DNA of 64,000 nt from the human T2T-CHM13v2.0 reference genome, Homo sapiens. Under the pieces are notes generated by a model. That model was not told where the DNA came from, ran no database searches, and worked only from the letters and a program-made list of their open reading frames with translations. The stretch spans positions 44,576,001 to 44,640,000 of the forward strand of contig CP068257.2 in assembly GCA_009914755.4 (NCBI GenBank), read 5' to 3'. Position 1 is the stretch's first letter, and each line of letters starts with the position of its first letter. Below, piece after piece: positions 1 through 60,780 of this stretch. The position numbers and the translations under genes were made by a program.

Positions 1-355
1 TGTGTGTGCACAGACCTGTGTGTGCATCTGTCTCCATGTACCTACGTCTGTGTGTGGCACAGATGGGATCCTGTGGGTGCATCTGTACGTGTGTGTACAC
101 AGGTGCCTGTGCATGCATACGTGTGTGCACAGACCTGTGTGTGCATCTGTCTCCATGTACCTATGTCAGTGTGTGGCACAGATGGGATGCTGTGGGTGCA
201 TCTGTATGTGTGTGGACACAGGTGCCTGTGTGGGCATGCGTACGTGTGTGCATAGGCCTGTGTGTGCATCTGTCTCCATGTACATCTGTGTGTGCACATC
301 AGTGTGTACACTGATGCCTGCCTGCATGCGTCTGCGTGTGTGTGCACCTGGCACA
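1..355. repeat. TG-rich tandem repeat, about 118-bp unit x3 (tgtgtgcacagacctgtgtgtgcatctgtctccatgtacct...), in LSS intron 20
   Basis: three diverged copies; (TG)n/(CA)n-rich. Confidence 0.85.
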
Positions 356-2468: not shown

Positions 2469-2585
<117 letters not shown>

Positions 2586-6395: not shown

Positions 6396-7244
6396 GCAAA
6401 ATTGTCTAGCTATGAGATCAGTATCAAAATCAATTGCATAAGAATCTATGCGTCCACAGTGATAAATAAGTAAATAAACAGAGGCAAAGGAAAAGCTTTT
6501 GGAAGAACACCAACTAATACATATGGAAGGAATGATAATTTTGTAAGCATTATGCAAATAATTGATTCAGGCAAGAATCATCATCAAATGCTAACACTAA
6601 CAGGTATAAGTATGATGAGAAATAGGACGTTTACATAGTCTAAAACTGTCTCCCCACAAAGAAAAAAAAAGCAACTTCATAGCGGAGAAACTAAGTACAG
6701 CGGTCATCACCTTAATCAAGGGATCAAAGTTGGTGTGTGCTTCCTGGTAAGGTGCAGGAGAAGGCCCCATTTCTTCTGCAATCTTCCTGACAAAAATGTA
6801 GTTTCATAACCTGAATCTAATCACGAGACACCAGAAAAAAAAAAACACTGAGGATATTCTACAAAATAACTTGTGGAACAATTCAAAAATGACAAAGTCA
6901 TCAAACACAAGGAAAGATTAAGGAATTATTCCAGGTTAAAAGGGTGTCAATGTGATAACTAAATGCAACCCATGTGCACAGTGAGAAGGGTAAGGAAAAC
7001 AGAAAAAGAAAAGAAAAATAATTAAAAATAAACAAATGCAACCCATGATATTGGATTAAAGCTTGAGGGAAGATTTTGCCATAAAGGACATTATTGGAAC
7101 AATTAGGCCTGCAGATTAGTATTTCATCAACATTAACATTCTGACTTACACTTGCACAAAAGAATACACCTGCTAAGAAATACTCAGGCAGTTAGGGGTA
7201 CACATCCTATCTGCAAATTCCTTTCCAATGGTTCAAGAAAGAAT

Positions 7245-8146
7245 GGGCCTGGATCATGTGGGAAGACAGGTAATGAAGCCCTGAGGGTAGAGCCTGGATC
7301 ATGTGGGAGGACAGGTCATGAAGCCCTGAGGGTAGAGCCTGGATCACGTGGGAGGACAGGTCATGAAGTCCTCAGGGTAGAGCCTGGATCATGTGGGAGG
7401 AAGGGTCATGAAGCCCTGAGGGTAGAGCCTGGATCACGTGGGAGGACAGGTCATGAAGCCCTGAGGGTAGAGCCTGGATCACGTGGGAGGACAGGTCATG
7501 AAGCCCTGAGGGTAGAGCCTGGATCACGTGGGAGGACAGGTCATGAAGCCCTGAGGGTAGAGCCTGGATCACGTGGGAGGACAGGTCATGAAGCCCTGAG
7601 GGTAGAGCCTGGATCACGTGGGAGGACAGGTCATGAAGCCCTGAGGGTAGAGCCTGGATCACGTGGGAGGACAGGTCATGAAGCCCTCAGGGTAGAGCCT
7701 GGATCACGTGGGAGGACAGGTCATGAAGCCCTGAGGGTAGAGCCTGGATCACGTGGGAGGACAGGTCATGAAGCCCTGAGGGTAGAGCCTGGATCACGTG
7801 GGAGGACAGGTCATGAAGCCCTGAGGGTAGAGCCTGGATCACGTGGGAGGACAGGTCATGAAGCCCTGAGGGTAGAGCCTGGATCACGTGGGAGGACAGG
7901 TCATGAAGCCCTCAGGGTAGAGCCTGGATCACGTGGGAGGACAGGTCATGAAGCCCTGAGGGTAGAGCCTGGATCACGTGGGAGGACAGGTCATGAAGCC
8001 CTGAGGGTAGAGCCTGGATCACGTGGGAGGACAGGTCATGAAGCCCTGAGGGTAGAGCCTGGATCATGTGGGAGGACAGGTCATGAAGCCCTGAGGGTAG
8101 AGCCTGGATCATGTGGGAGGACAGGTCATGAAGCCCTCAGGGTAGG
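7245..8146. repeat. 45-bp minisatellite/VNTR, about 20 copies (gagcctggatcacgtgggaggacaggtcatgaagccctgagggta), in LSS intron 17
   Basis: perfect or near-perfect head-to-tail units; the variant positions (acgtg/atgtg, ctgagg/ctcagg) recur every 5 units (225 bp) in the 3' half, a higher-order structure. Confidence 0.95.
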
Positions 8147-8291
8147 GTGCCACCCACTAAAGAATTCTAGTCAGAGTAAACAGGAGCACTTTTCAGTATT
8201 TTTGTAACTTTTCTATAAATTTGTGAATTTAAGGGAGAATTTAAGTCTGTCTAGTAAAATAGAATATTCCATATAAATAGTGTTAAAGTAA

Positions 8292-8636
<345 letters not shown>

Positions 8637-8654
8637 TTTAAAATCTTAATATAG

Positions 8655-8981
<327 letters not shown>

Positions 8982-12375: not shown

Positions 12376-12516
<141 letters not shown>

Positions 12517-27284: not shown

Positions 27285-27790
27285 AAGAGGAGAGGTAGCC
27301 AGGCCGGGCATGGAGAGGTAGCCAGGGGCTTGGAGAGGTAGCCAGGCCGGGGCTTGGAGAGGTAGACAGTTGGGGCTTGGAGAGGTGGACAGCCTGGGGC
27401 TTGGAGAGGTAGCCAGGCCAGGGCTTGGAGAGAAAGATAGTTGGCGCTTGGAGAGGTGGACAGCCCAGGGCTTGGGGAGGTAGCCAGGCCAGGGCTTGGA
27501 GAGGTAGACAGTTGGGGCTTGGAGAGGTGGACAGCCTGGGGCTTGGAGAGGTAGCCAGGCCGGGGCTTGGATAGGTGGACAGCCAGGGCTTGGAGAGGTA
27601 GCCAGACCAGGGCTTGGAGAGGTAGACAGTTGGGGCTTGGAGAGGTAAGACAACCCGGGGCTTGGAGAGGTGGACAGCCCGGGGCTTGGAGAGGTGGACA
27701 GCCCCGGGCTTGGAGAGGTGGACAGCCCCGGGCTTGGAGAGGTGGACAGCCCCGGGCTTGGAGAGGTAGACGATCAGCTTGGAAGGTGCA
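27285..27790. repeat. GC-rich minisatellite, 21-24-bp units (ggcttggagaggtagccaggcc / ggcttggagaggtggacagcccc), about 22 copies, in LSS intron 5
   Basis: visible tandem units; the last five copies are identical 24-mers. Confidence 0.9.
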
Positions 27791-35174: not shown

Positions 35175-35289
35175 TCAGCGACCCAGGCCCCGCCCCAACG
35201 CCGGCCGCCGGCCCACTGCCCCAGTCGCGCTCTCCTCAGCACCTAGGACCACCCCGCATTCGTCAGGAGCCCGGGGCGAGGGGACTCAC

Positions 35290-35303
35290 GTGCCCTCCGT
35301 CAT
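35290..35303 (-). CDS. LSS: LSS exon 1, coding part (Met-Thr-Glu-Gly-Thr, donor AC|gtgagt); the 5'UTR and TSS lie just upstream (higher coordinates) in the CpG island and are not delimited
   Basis: minus-strand ATG ACG GAG GGC AC followed by gtgagt; joins in frame to exon 2 ([10 protein letters not shown]...), giving the lanosterol synthase N-terminus MTEGTCLRRRGG. Confidence 0.8.
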
Positions 35304-35371
35304 TGCTGCTGCAGTGCTCTACGCCGCCCACTGCCAGCTGCCAGATGTCCGCACCCGGGACCTGCCGCCCA

Positions 35372-35408
35372 GCCCCGCCCCTCCCGCCCCTCCCGCCCCT
35401 CCCGCGCG
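35372..35408 (-). promoter_or_regulatory. three stacked Sp1-type GC boxes (ccgcccctc x3, GGGGCGG on the minus strand), 70-105 bp upstream of the LSS ATG
   Basis: ccccgcccctcccgcccctcccgcccctcccgcgcgc. Confidence 0.6.
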
Positions 35409-35477: not shown

Positions 35478-35629
35478 GCGCCGCGAGCGTGACCCCGGGG
35501 TGTGCCAGGCGACCACAGTGGTGGAGCGCTTGGTGCCCCATGCGGCGTGGGGCGGGGCCTGAGGGAGCGGGGATGGTGGGTGAAGGCGACGGGACGGGGG
35601 AGGCGGGTGGGGCCTTATTGGCGGGGCAT

Positions 35630-35760
35630 GAGGGGCGGGGCTGGTGGGTGGGGAGGTGGGGGCGGGGCTGGTGGGTGGGGAGGTGGGGGCGGGGGCTGGT
35701 GGGTGCGGGTGGGTGCGGGGCTGGTGGGTGGGGCCGAAGGGCGGGGGCGGGGGCGGGGCC
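35630..35760. repeat. G-rich minisatellite, about 28-bp unit x about 4.5 (gggcggggctggtgggtggggaggtgg), G-rich on the plus strand, 330-450 bp upstream of the LSS ATG
   Basis: direct tandem copies with point variants; runs of 3-5 G separated by 1-4 nt (G-quadruplex potential). Confidence 0.8.
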
Positions 35761-59986: not shown

Positions 59987-60780
59987 CAAGTAATATGGTT
60001 TGGATTTGTGTCCCTACCCAAATCTCATGTTGAACTGTAATCCCCAATGTTGGAGGAGGGGCCTGGTGGGAAGTGATTGTATCATGGGGGTGGAATCCCC
60101 CTGGCTGTTCTCATGATAGTGAGCTCTCACGAGATCTGGTTAAGTGTGTGACAACTCCCCCTCACTGTTCTCATGATAGTGAGCTCTCACGAGATCTGGT
60201 TAAGTGTGTGACAACTCCCCTTCGCTGTTGTCATGATAGTGAGCTCTCACGAGATGTGGTTGTGTGACAACTCCCCCTCACTGTTCTCATGATAGTGAGC
60301 TCTCAACAAGATCTGGTTAAGTGTGTGGCAACTCACCCTCGCTGTTCTCATGATAGTGAGCTCTCAGGAGATCTGGTTAAGTGTGTGGAAACTCCCCCTT
60401 GCTGTTCTCATGAAAGTGAGCCTCGCGAGACCTGGTTAAGTGTGCAGCACCTCCCCCTTGCTGTTCTCATTACAGTGAGCTGTCACGAGATCTGGTTGTT
60501 TAGAAGTGTGTGGCACCTCCCACTTTGCTGTTCTCATGATAGTGAGCTCTCACGAGATCTGGTTAAGCATGTGGCATCTCCCCCTTCTCTCTCTCTTCCT
60601 CCTGCTTTGGCCATGTAAGACATGCCTCCCTCCCCTTAGCCTTCCACCATGATTGTGGGTTTCCTGAGGCCTCCCCAGCCATGCTTCCTGTACAGCCGAG
60701 CCAATTAAACCTCTTTATAAAGTACCCAGTCTCAGATATTTCTTTAAAGCAGTGTGAGAACGGACTAATACACCAAGTTT
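59987..60780 (+). mobile_element. MaLR (THE1/MST-like) LTR carrying an internal 57-bp tandem amplification
   Basis: THE1-type signature tatggtttgg.t.tgtccc.acccaaatctcatgttgaactgtaatccccaatgttggagg.ggggcctggtgggaagtgattg.atcatggggg ... ccatgattgtg.gtttcctgaggcctccccagccatgcttcctgtacagcc.agccaattaaacctctttataaa.tacccagtctcag. Confidence 0.7.
60095..60585. repeat. 57-bp tandem array x about 8 (tgttctcatgatagtgagctctcacgagatctggttaagtgtgtgacaactccccctcgc) inside the MaLR LTR
   Basis: the LTR-internal segment is single-copy in the THE1 consensus but repeated head-to-tail here; ORFs 60073..60267 and 60289..60618 are artefacts of it. Confidence 0.85.

What the first reader, a model, noticed from the sequence alone, without database searches (positions are those of the whole stretch)
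7245..8146. 45-bp x ~20 intronic VNTR in which every unit carries an E-box (CACGTG) and an AGGTCA half-site, with 5-unit higher-order periodicity
The unit gagcctggatCACGTGggaggacAGGTCAtgaagccctgagggta repeats about 20 times in LSS intron 17. About 15 units keep a perfect CACGTG; the rest have CATGTG. All units carry AGGTCA 13 bp downstream. The variant positions (ctcagg versus ctgagg) recur at exactly 225-bp intervals (7686, 7911, 8136), so recent expansion happened in 5-unit blocks, probably by unequal crossover. An array of ~15 E-boxes spaced 45 bp apart is a potential high-avidity platform for bHLH-ZIP factors (USF, MYC/MAX, TFE/MITF; SREBPs also bind E-boxes). The gene is itself sterol-regulated. 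The regulatory idea is pure hypothesis. What is certain is a large, probably length-polymorphic minisatellite, which also creates the 351 aa pseudo-ORF.
Basis: partly seen in the sequence, partly recalled or inferred. Interest (0 to 1): 0.55.

Follow-up and report, generated by a model that had tools for sequence, protein, structure and literature searches.

The report
Ordinary intronic minisatellite in human LSS
This is a real 20-copy, 45-bp tandem repeat deep inside intron 17 of the human lanosterol synthase gene, and its many E-box motifs look like a by-product of copying one unit, so it appears to be an ordinary subtelomeric minisatellite rather than a demonstrated regulatory element.

Summary
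The array is real. It has 20.0 head-to-tail copies of a 45-bp unit at 7245-8144, with 97% identity and no indels. It lies in the 9.8-kb intron 17 of human LSS, which is on the minus strand, more than 4 kb from either exon.

Three details need correcting:
- CACGTG is in 15 units and CATGTG in the 5 edge units.
- AGGTCA is in 18 of 20 units, not all.
- The ctCagg variant is in four units (3, 10, 15, 20), so the "5-unit periodicity" rests on two equal intervals. TRF reports no 225-bp period.

The 351-aa ORF exists. It has no relatives and is a repeat artefact.

Nothing in the sequence suggests selection on the motifs. Twelve units are identical over all 45 positions. The E-box CpG is the most variable site in the array, and the two motifs together hold 7 of the 15 variant cells. 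CpG obs/exp is 0.21. No extended bHLH-ZIP or nuclear-receptor consensus is met.

The flanks align collinearly with an old L1 3' end, although I recalled that consensus from memory. The locus is about 0.5 Mb from the 21q telomere, where GC-rich VNTRs are strongly enriched.

The best reading is a neutral, recently expanded minisatellite. TF occupancy, methylation and length polymorphism could not be tested with these tools. Precedents exist: the hTERT intron-2 E-box VNTR and MORC3-restricted motif-cluster repeats. Low interest.

The parts
7245..8144 (.). Minisatellite array: 20 units of 45 bp, consensus GAGCCTGGATCACGTGGGAGGACAGGTCATGAAGCCCTGAGGGTA. Twelve units are identical to the consensus. 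The + strand is G-rich (G 357, C 176).
   Evidence: TRF; unit table; 19 matches versus 0 expected; composition
7245..7424 (.). Diverged left-edge units 1-4. They hold 10 of the 15 variant cells. Units 1, 2 and 4 have CATGTG. AGGTCA is lost in units 1 and 4. Unit 3 carries ctCagg plus a private C>T.
7470..7919 (.). Units 6-10 and 11-15 form the only exact 225-bp (5-unit) duplicate. Each block is four consensus units followed by one ctCagg unit.
8055..8144 (.). Right-edge units 19-20, both CATGTG. Unit 20 also carries ctCagg.
7152..8207 (+). 351-aa pseudo-ORF (TTG start), antisense to LSS. It stays open only because 45 bp equals 15 codons with no stop in that frame.
   Evidence: No relatives among 5.8 billion proteins. 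The Pfam Collagen hit is a repeat artefact: the unit reads GSR GRT GHE ALR VEP, so Gly-X-Y is broken in every unit.
6920..7244 (+). Left flank. It aligns collinearly with a recalled L1M-type LINE-1 3' end, up to ...CAATGGTTCAAGAAAGAA at 7243. The array begins at the next base but one.
   Evidence: Local alignment score 47 versus shuffles 20.5 +/- 2.3; a 290-bp collinear alignment. The consensus and its name come from memory, not a repeat library.
8145..8330 (+). Right flank. It matches the terminal part of the same recalled L1 3' end (…TTGTAACTTTTCTATAAATTTGTGAATTTA…).
   Evidence: Score 35 versus 18.1 +/- 2.9. Same caveat as the left flank.
12376..12483 (-). LSS exon 17 (aa 522-557). Its donor is 4.2 kb from the array.
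   Evidence: The protein is identical to PDB 1W6J lanosterol synthase.
2469..2537 (-). LSS exon 18 (aa 557-579). Its acceptor is 4.7 kb from the array.
8355..8936 (.). Two Alu elements just downstream of the L1 remnant (minus at about 8355-8633, plus at about 8655-8936). They are context only.
   Evidence: Sub-threshold Metazoa_SRP and mir-1268 matches typical of Alu

Best explanation
The array is a selectively neutral minisatellite. It arose inside the remnant of an old LINE-1 3' UTR, deep in intron 17 of human LSS, about 0.5 Mb from the 21q telomere.

One 45-bp unit was amplified by the usual minisatellite processes: replication slippage, unequal sister-chromatid exchange, or conversion-type repair. 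At least one of these events copied a 5-unit (225-bp) block.

The interior (units 5-18) was expanded or homogenised recently, on a scale of up to about 2 Myr. The edge units are older and more diverged.

The 15 CACGTG and 18 AGGTCA motifs exist because the amplified unit happened to contain them, not because they were selected. In most tissues the array is expected to be methylated gene-body DNA with little or no effect on LSS.

Shown here: the anatomy, the position, the variant pattern and the lack of motif-specific conservation. Inferred: the mechanism of expansion, the methylation state, neutrality and the L1 origin.
For: - 20.0 copies, 97% identity, no indels.
- 12 of 20 units are identical over all 45 positions, so motif identity is simply unit identity.
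- Variant cells concentrate at the edges: 10 of 15 in units 1-4 and 3 in units 19-20. This is the classic minisatellite pattern.
- The E-box CpG is the most variable site. The C/T difference at position 13 affects 5 units, all at the edges. The two motifs occupy 12 of 45 positions but hold 7 of 15 variant cells.
- CpG obs/exp is 0.21 at 59% GC, so this is not a CpG island.
- The unit occurs nowhere else in the 64-kb window.
- Both flanks align collinearly with a recalled L1 3' end, and the array starts exactly where the left alignment ends.
- The position is deep intronic, more than 4 kb from either splice site.
- Anchoring on the published LSS 5'UTR repeat at chr21:46228815-46228863 puts the array near chr21:46.2007 Mb.
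- GC-rich VNTRs with units longer than 15 bp are about 21-fold enriched within 5 Mb of chromosome ends (PMC7608644).
- About 1% of arbitrary 45-bp windows here contain CACGTG, and 0.18% contain both motifs. With 35,638-70,000 human VNTR loci (abstracts), on the order of a hundred arrays are expected to carry both motifs by chance.
- No RNA family, no single-strand structure (z 0.88 and 0.14) and no protein relatives.
Against: - No functional data could be examined: no ChIP-seq, ATAC, methylation or eQTL. Neutrality is therefore a default, not a demonstration.
- 15 canonical palindromic E-boxes at 45-bp spacing would be a strong in-vitro target for bHLH-ZIP dimers if unmethylated.
- Tandem repeats with homotypic motif clusters can be potent enhancers (IFNB1-MRE, PMC13373173).
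- VNTRs as a class are enriched for eQTLs (PMC8096271).
- Homogeneous units give almost no power to detect constraint, because only 15 variant cells exist.
- The direction of the C/T change at the E-box (CpG decay versus recent gain) cannot be decided without an ape outgroup.
- The L1 assignment rests on a consensus recalled from memory.
Confidence: 0.75

Rival explanations
1. The array is a homotypic E-box cluster. It binds bHLH-ZIP factors (USF, MAX partners, TFE/MITF, possibly SREBP) and acts as a copy-number-dependent intronic enhancer or silencer of LSS or a neighbouring gene.
For: - 15 perfect CACGTG at 45-bp spacing and 5 CATGTG.
- One flank of each site is TCACGTG (TFE/MITF/USF-compatible) and the other is CCACGTG (MYC/MAX-compatible). 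The MYC/MAX 8-mer is met with 1 mismatch.
- Precedent: many units of hTERT VNTR2-1st (42 bp, intron 2) carry the MYC-family site CACGTG (PMC2915984).
- Precedent: tandem repeats with up to 61 homotypic motifs can be enhancers (PMC13373173).
Against: - No occupancy or accessibility data are available here.
- The E-box is the least conserved site in the unit.
- Extended consensus is poorly met: the USF 12-mer has 4 mismatches, CLEAR has 3 of 10, and the SREBP E-box has 2 of 10.
- The array is a CpG-poor gene-body context (obs/exp 0.21), so the central CpG is probably methylated. USF binding is attenuated by methylation of a single CpG (bioRxiv 10.1101/768697, title). Methyl-sensitivity of MYC/MAX is established knowledge.
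- In the MORC3 study, large motif clusters were less accessible in wild-type cells, and only 2 of 53 restricted repeats regulated genes.
- Neither LSS nor chr21 appears in that study's held supplements.
- 45 bp is 4.3 helical turns, so neighbouring sites are not on the same face of the helix (inference).
Confidence: 0.13
2. The array acts at the RNA or transcription level on LSS. In the pre-mRNA (minus-strand sense) each unit reads ...CCTGTCCTCCCACGTGATCCAG|GCTC, a polypyrimidine-plus-AG motif that resembles an acceptor. Twenty decoy acceptors, or a long repeat that slows elongation, could modulate intron 17 removal in a length-dependent way.
For: - Reading the reverse complement of the unit directly shows the acceptor-like motif (sequence).
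- Intronic VNTRs that alter splicing are documented as a class (PMC8096271 introduction).
- Long VNTRs have been linked to impaired transcription (PMC7608644 abstract).
Against: - The array is more than 4 kb from both splice sites.
- No GT donor of any quality follows within the unit in the sense orientation, so no pseudo-exon is defined (sequence reading).
- No RNA structure is predicted and no Rfam match is found.
- No transcript data are available.
Confidence: 0.05
3. The AGGTCA motifs make the array a nuclear-receptor response platform.
For: AGGTCA is in 18 of 20 units, always on the same strand.
Against: - No second half-site sits in any DR, IR or ER arrangement. The best ERE has 2 mismatches, and DR1 and DR4 each have 4.
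- The 5' flank GGAC is not the A/T-rich extension needed by monomeric receptors. ERRE and SF-1 have 3 mismatches, and NBRE has 1 but at the critical -1/-2 A.
- About 3% of arbitrary 45-bp windows here contain the hexamer.
Confidence: 0.02
4. The 351-aa ORF encodes a real, collagen-like repeat protein.
For: The ORF is open for 351 codons. Pfam Collagen scores E 7e-22, above its cut-off.
Against: - No relatives among 5.8 billion predicted proteins.
- The ORF has a TTG start and lies antisense inside an intron.
- Each 15-aa unit is GSR GRT GHE ALR VEP, so Gly-X-Y is broken twice per unit.
- The open frame is the trivial result of a 45-bp unit with no stop codon in that frame.
Confidence: 0.01

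Closest known systems
hTERT-VNTR2-1st (42-bp minisatellite in TERT intron 2)
   Same: It is an intronic minisatellite with a similar unit size (42 versus 45 bp) in a subtelomeric gene. Many of its units contain the canonical CACGTG MYC-family site (PMC2915984). Its function is likewise proposed from motif content.
   Different: TERT is an established MYC target through promoter E-boxes, and its VNTRs are shown to be polymorphic and Mendelian. For the LSS array, neither polymorphism nor any link to a bHLH-ZIP factor has been shown.
MORC3-restricted tandem repeats with homotypic TF-motif clusters (IFNB1-MRE, TWIST2-MRE)
   Same: They are tandem repeats that multiply one TF motif tens of times, up to 61.
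   Different: Those clusters are SPI/ETS, AP-1 or SP/KLF motifs, not E-boxes. Occupancy, repression by MORC3/DAXX and enhancer activity were shown experimentally. Only 2 of 53 such repeats regulated genes. LSS and chr21 are not in the held supplements.
Subtelomeric GC-rich VNTRs with long units (for example the ABCA7 intronic VNTR class)
   Same: The array has a unit longer than 15 bp, 59% GC, an intronic position, and lies within 5 Mb (here about 0.5 Mb) of a chromosome end. This class is about 21-fold enriched there and accounts for most long-read structural variants (PMC7608644).
   Different: GC is just under that paper's 60% cut-off. Length variation at this locus was not observed here.
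Published LSS eVNTR (9-bp unit, 5'UTR, chr21:46228815-46228863)
   Same: It is a tandem repeat in the same gene that is associated with LSS expression (PMC8024321; PMC8096271).
   Different: It is a different repeat. It lies at window 35365-35405, 27 kb from the intron-17 array. The short-read methods used in those studies cannot genotype a 900-bp array, so their LSS result says nothing about this one.

Membership tests
Minisatellite / VNTR | Head-to-tail copies of a unit of roughly 7-100 bp | tested here: met
   TRF: period 45, 20.0 copies, 97% matches, 0 indels, score 1700
Minisatellite / VNTR | Interspersed variant units, with the more diverged units at the array edges | tested here: met
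   13 of 15 variant cells are in units 1-4 and 19-20. The interior varies only at G39C in units 10 and 15.
Minisatellite / VNTR | Copy number varies among individuals (the 'V' in VNTR) | not testable with these tools
   No human population assemblies are available. The unit is absent from metagenome contigs and genome contigs. No paper or held supplement lists this array.
Higher-order repeat (multi-unit period) | Identity at the multi-unit lag clearly exceeds identity at the base period over at least 3 blocks | tested here: inconclusive
   Lag-5 mismatches are 3, versus 5-7 at other lags in units 5-20. This rests on one variant site in three units. The fourth carrier (unit 3) is off-period. 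P is 0.034 post hoc for d=5 and 0.23 for any spacing.
Higher-order repeat (multi-unit period) | A tandem-repeat finder reports the longer period | tested here: not met
   TRF (maximum period 500) reports only period 45 here. By contrast it reports 71-bp and 177-bp super-periods for two other arrays in the window.
Functional homotypic TF-motif cluster (tandem-repeat enhancer or silencer) | The motif is present in most units | tested here: met
   CACGTG is in 15 of 20 units and CATGTG in 5 of 20
Functional homotypic TF-motif cluster (tandem-repeat enhancer or silencer) | The motif is preserved better than the rest of the unit | tested here: not met
   Position 13 (the E-box CpG) is the most variable site, with 5 of 15 variant cells. 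The E-box and AGGTCA together hold 7 of 15 variant cells in 12 of 45 positions. Power is low.
Functional homotypic TF-motif cluster (tandem-repeat enhancer or silencer) | Match to the extended consensus of a specific factor | tested here: inconclusive
   MYC/MAX CCACGTGG has 1 mismatch, SREBP ATCACGTGAT has 2, CLEAR has 3, and the USF 12-mer has 4. Only the core hexamer is perfect.
Functional homotypic TF-motif cluster (tandem-repeat enhancer or silencer) | TF occupancy, open chromatin or hypomethylation, and an effect on transcription | not testable with these tools
   No ChIP, ATAC, methylation or expression data are accessible. The literature search found nothing for this array.
Nuclear-receptor response element | Two half-sites in a DR, IR or ER arrangement, or an A/T-rich 5' extension for monomeric receptors | tested here: not met
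   The best ERE has 2 mismatches, DR1 and DR4 have 4, and ERRE, SF-1 and RORE have 3
CpG island | CpG observed/expected of at least 0.6 with GC of at least 50% | tested here: not met
   GC is 59% but CpG obs/exp is 0.21, with 15 CpGs in 900 bp
Collagen-like protein (Pfam PF01391) | Uninterrupted Gly-X-Y triplets, and homologues | tested here: not met
   The Pfam score passes, but the unit is GSR GRT GHE ALR VEP, and there are no relatives among 5.8 billion proteins
LINE-1 3' UTR remnant (host of the array) | Collinear similarity of both flanks to an L1 3' end consensus | tested here: inconclusive
   Significant collinear alignments to a consensus recalled from memory. No repeat library (Dfam/RepeatMasker) was available to confirm the name or subfamily.

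The most novel reading that the evidence does not exclude
The intron-17 array is a length-polymorphic, hypomethylated E-box cluster. In some cell type (for example hepatocytes, or sterol-depleted or lysosome-stressed cells) it is bound by USF, TFE/MITF or SREBP dimers. It would then tune LSS transcription in proportion to copy number, making it a sterol-pathway gene with a VNTR 'rheostat'.
Probability: 0.06. Interest if true: 0.5.

Novelty: already known. Interest (0 to 1): 0.12.

Why it matters
As it stands, this matters little. It is one of tens of thousands of human minisatellites, in the chromosomal zone where they are most common. Any TRF-based annotation of the reference genome finds it.

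It would matter modestly if array length turned out to influence LSS expression. LSS is a cholesterol-pathway enzyme with Mendelian phenotypes (cataract, hypotrichosis), and large VNTRs are invisible to SNP-based eQTL and GWAS studies. The published LSS VNTR eQTL concerns a different, 5'UTR repeat, so the intron-17 array remains unassessed.

A practical lesson is that motif multiplicity in a homogeneous tandem array is not evidence of function. Each motif is copied with the unit.

Tried and rejected
1. Other alleles or copies. I searched the exact 45-mer in metagenome contigs and genome contigs, hoping for human contamination. Both returned 0 hits.
2. Pseudo-ORF relatives. The search against 5.8 billion proteins returned none, so it yielded no alternative alleles or primate orthologues either.
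3. Literature. Searches for LSS + VNTR, LSS + tandem repeat + eQTL, and E-box + VNTR or minisatellite found only the 5'UTR LSS eVNTR. Held supplements of Garg et al. (bioRxiv), Lu et al. 2023, the MORC3 paper and the subtelomere paper contain no LSS entry or are not held. The AJHG version was not available.
4. Structured RNA or known RNA family. Rfam finds nothing in the array, only Alu-derived hits downstream. Single-strand folding is not better than shuffles.
5. Recombination signals. The PRDM9 13-mer (3 mismatches), the Jeffreys core (2 of 10 and 7 of 16) and chi (3 of 8) are not present.
6. CTCF, ChoRE, CRE and AP-1. No good matches.
7. Collagen-like protein. Rejected as a repeat artefact.
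8. Flank paralogues in the window. None were found, so the L1 origin could only be tested against a recalled consensus.

Full report
**Observation**

Tandem Repeats Finder reports a single array at 7247-8145 with period 45, 20.0 copies, 97% matches, no indels and score 1700. Twenty units run from 7245 to 8144, and twelve are identical to the consensus GAGCCTGGATCACGTGGGAGGACAGGTCATGAAGCCCTGAGGGTA. The consensus matches 19 times at up to 3 mismatches, against none in 100 dinucleotide shuffles, and occurs nowhere else in the 64-kb window.

- CACGTG is present in exactly 15 units (3 and 5-18).
- The other five units (1, 2, 4, 19, 20) have CATGTG.
- AGGTCA begins 13 bp after the start of the E-box, but it is present in 18 units, not all. 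Unit 1 has AGGTAA and unit 4 has GGGTCA.
- The 351-aa ORF exists (7152..8207, + strand, TTG start).

**Higher-order periodicity**

The G-to-C variant (ctCagg) occurs in four units: 3, 10, 15 and 20. The step from unit 3 to unit 10 is 7 units, not 5.

Units 6-10 and 11-15 are an exact 225-bp duplicate. Units 16-20 differ from them at two cells. In the interior, the lag-5 comparison has the fewest mismatches (3, versus 5-7 at other lags). This rests on one variant site.

If four units among twenty are marked at random, a three-term progression with spacing 5 appears with probability 0.034. With any spacing of 2 or more the probability is 0.23. TRF reports no 225-bp period here, although it does report super-periods for two other arrays in the window.

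One 5-unit duplication is therefore a reasonable inference. A general '5-unit higher-order structure' is not established. Unequal crossover is only one of several mechanisms that could produce it.

**Locus**

A lanosterol synthase sequence that I recalled from memory proved identical to PDB 1W6J chain A, 'LANOSTEROL SYNTHASE'. It maps to the window's minus strand as exons 1-20 with plausible splice sites.

The array lies between exon 17 (12483-12376, aa 522-557) and exon 18 (2537-2469, aa 557-579). The intron is 9.8 kb, and the array is 4.2 kb from the donor and 4.7 kb from the acceptor. The pseudo-ORF and the G-rich strand are antisense to LSS.

The 9-bp repeat at 35374-35405 corresponds to the published LSS 5'UTR eVNTR at chr21:46228815-46228863 (PMC8024321). 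That places the array at about chr21:46,200,695-46,201,595 in hg38. From my memory of the length of chr21, this is roughly 0.5 Mb from the 21q telomere.

**Surroundings and origin**

- Rfam finds nothing in the array, and only Alu-type matches at 8355-8936.
The alignment ends at 7243, two bases before the array.
- The right flank matches the terminal part of the same consensus.
- Local alignment scores are 47 versus 20.5±2.3, and 35 versus 18.1±2.9, in shuffles.

The similarity is a computed result. The name 'L1 3' end' comes from memory and needs RepeatMasker to confirm. If it is correct, the array grew inside old retrotransposon debris and not inside a conserved element.

**Signs that the motifs matter**

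There are only 15 variant cells in 900 bp.

- Five of them are the C/T difference at the E-box CpG (position 13), the single most variable site.
- Two hit AGGTCA.
- The two motifs cover 27% of positions and carry 47% of variant cells.

The twelve consensus units are identical at every position, so the perfect E-boxes reflect recent amplification and not motif-specific conservation.

The five CATGTG units sit at both edges. Two histories fit this: CpG decay in older edge units, or an ancestral CATGTG with a recent gain of CACGTG that then expanded. Neither implies selection, and only an ape outgroup can decide between them.

The array is not a CpG island (GC 59%, CpG obs/exp 0.21).

Beyond the core hexamer, the extended consensuses are poorly met:

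| Consensus | Mismatches |
|---|---|
| USF 12-mer | 4 |
| CLEAR | 3 of 10 |
| SREBP E-box decamer | 2 |
| MYC/MAX octamer | 1 |

AGGTCA has no partner half-site in any direct, inverted or everted arrangement, and it lacks the A/T-rich 5' extension used by monomeric receptors.

As background, 1.0% of arbitrary 45-bp windows outside the array contain CACGTG, 3.1% contain AGGTCA or TGACCT, and 0.18% contain both. With 35,638 to about 70,000 human VNTR loci (abstracts), on the order of a hundred arrays should carry both motifs by chance.

**Inference on binding**

The array sits in the body of a broadly expressed gene and is CpG-poor, so its CpGs are probably methylated. This is established knowledge about gene bodies and was not tested here. 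Methylation of the central CpG impairs E-box binding by MYC/MAX and USF. For USF, see bioRxiv 10.1101/768697, listed.

Forty-five base pairs is 4.3 helical turns, so adjacent sites do not face the same side of the helix.

**Other readings examined**

- The ORF has no relatives among 5.8 billion predicted proteins.
- Its Pfam Collagen hit (E 7e-22) is an artefact. Each 15-residue unit reads GSR GRT GHE ALR VEP, which breaks Gly-X-Y twice.
- Three units folded as single-stranded DNA are no more stable than shuffles (z 0.88 and 0.14).
- PRDM9, Jeffreys-core, chi and CTCF motifs are absent.
- In the LSS sense orientation each unit contains an acceptor-like CCTGTCCTCCCACGTGATCCAG|G. No usable donor follows, and the array is far from the real splice sites.

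**What is known**

No paper in the library treats this array. The two studies that list LSS as a VNTR eGene used short-read methods and concern the 5'UTR repeat. They are silent on a 900-bp intronic array.

The idea itself has precedents:

- Many units of the 42-bp hTERT intron-2 minisatellite carry CACGTG (PMC2915984).
- Minisatellites carrying NF-kB or myc/HLH sites, and intronic VNTR enhancers, are textbook cases (PMC8096271 introduction).
- A 2026 study shows tandem repeats with up to 61 homotypic motifs. These are accessibility-restricted by MORC3, and only 2 of 53 regulate genes (PMC13373173). Its held supplements mention neither chr21 nor LSS.
- GC-rich VNTRs with units longer than 15 bp are about 21-fold enriched within 5 Mb of chromosome ends (PMC7608644). 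This fits the locus.

**Verdict**

The best explanation (confidence 0.75) is a neutral, recently expanded subtelomeric minisatellite inside an L1 remnant in LSS intron 17, whose motif multiplicity is a by-product of unit amplification. The regulatory-platform hypothesis is not excluded (about 0.13). It has no support beyond a core hexamer, and the little internal evidence leans against it.

Length polymorphism, methylation and occupancy could not be tested with these tools. The decisive analyses are listed in the next-steps field. As a kind of feature this is already known, and interest is low.

Noticed in passing
window 823-821 (minus strand), LSS exon 20: Codon 642 encodes Val here, whereas the PDB 1W6J sequence has Leu. 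This corresponds to the known LSS V642L polymorphism rs2254524 (the paper title appears). All other mapped residues are identical to 1W6J.
   Followed up: partly
window 27289-27771 (LSS intron 5): A second minisatellite of about 20 copies, with a 24-bp G-rich unit GGAGAGGTAGACAGGCCGGGGCTT. TRF also reports a better-scoring 71-bp (3-unit) period for it, so this array has clearer higher-order structure than the intron-17 one.
   Followed up: no
window 60096-60585: A 60-bp x 8.1 tandem array with a 177-bp (3-unit) super-period at 84-85% identity, upstream of LSS in the neighbouring gene region.
   Followed up: no
window 35365-35405 and 35549-35758: The LSS 5'UTR and promoter are packed with GC-rich repeats. 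CCCGCCCCT x3.6 matches the published LSS 5'UTR eVNTR at chr21:46228815-46228863. There are also 27-bp and 68-bp GGGGCGGGG-containing (GC-box-like) repeats just upstream. The published LSS VNTR eQTL concerns this region, not intron 17.
   Followed up: partly
whole window outside 7245-8144: CACGTG occurs 16 times outside the array, against about 5.3±2.4 expected for the whole window from dinucleotide shuffles. One copy (35287-35292) overlaps the exon-1 splice donor (GGCACG|TGAGT). The excess is probably due to compositional heterogeneity and was not analysed further.
   Followed up: no
window 35303-35289 and 35156: LSS exon 1 carries only the first five codons (MTEGT) and is followed by a very short intron of about 130 bp. 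Without it the exon count would be one short, and the array's intron would be numbered 16.
   Followed up: yes
window 7152-8207 (+): Pfam's Collagen model scores the repeat-generated pseudo-ORF at E 7e-22, well above its curated cut-off. The Gly-X-Y pattern is nevertheless broken in every unit, and the ORF has no homologues. This is a reminder that this model fires on translated tandem repeats.
   Followed up: yes
window 2-283: A 119-bp x 2.3 tandem repeat (92% identity), rich in GTGTGTGCAC-type sequence, lies at the very start of the window, downstream of LSS exon 20.
   Followed up: no
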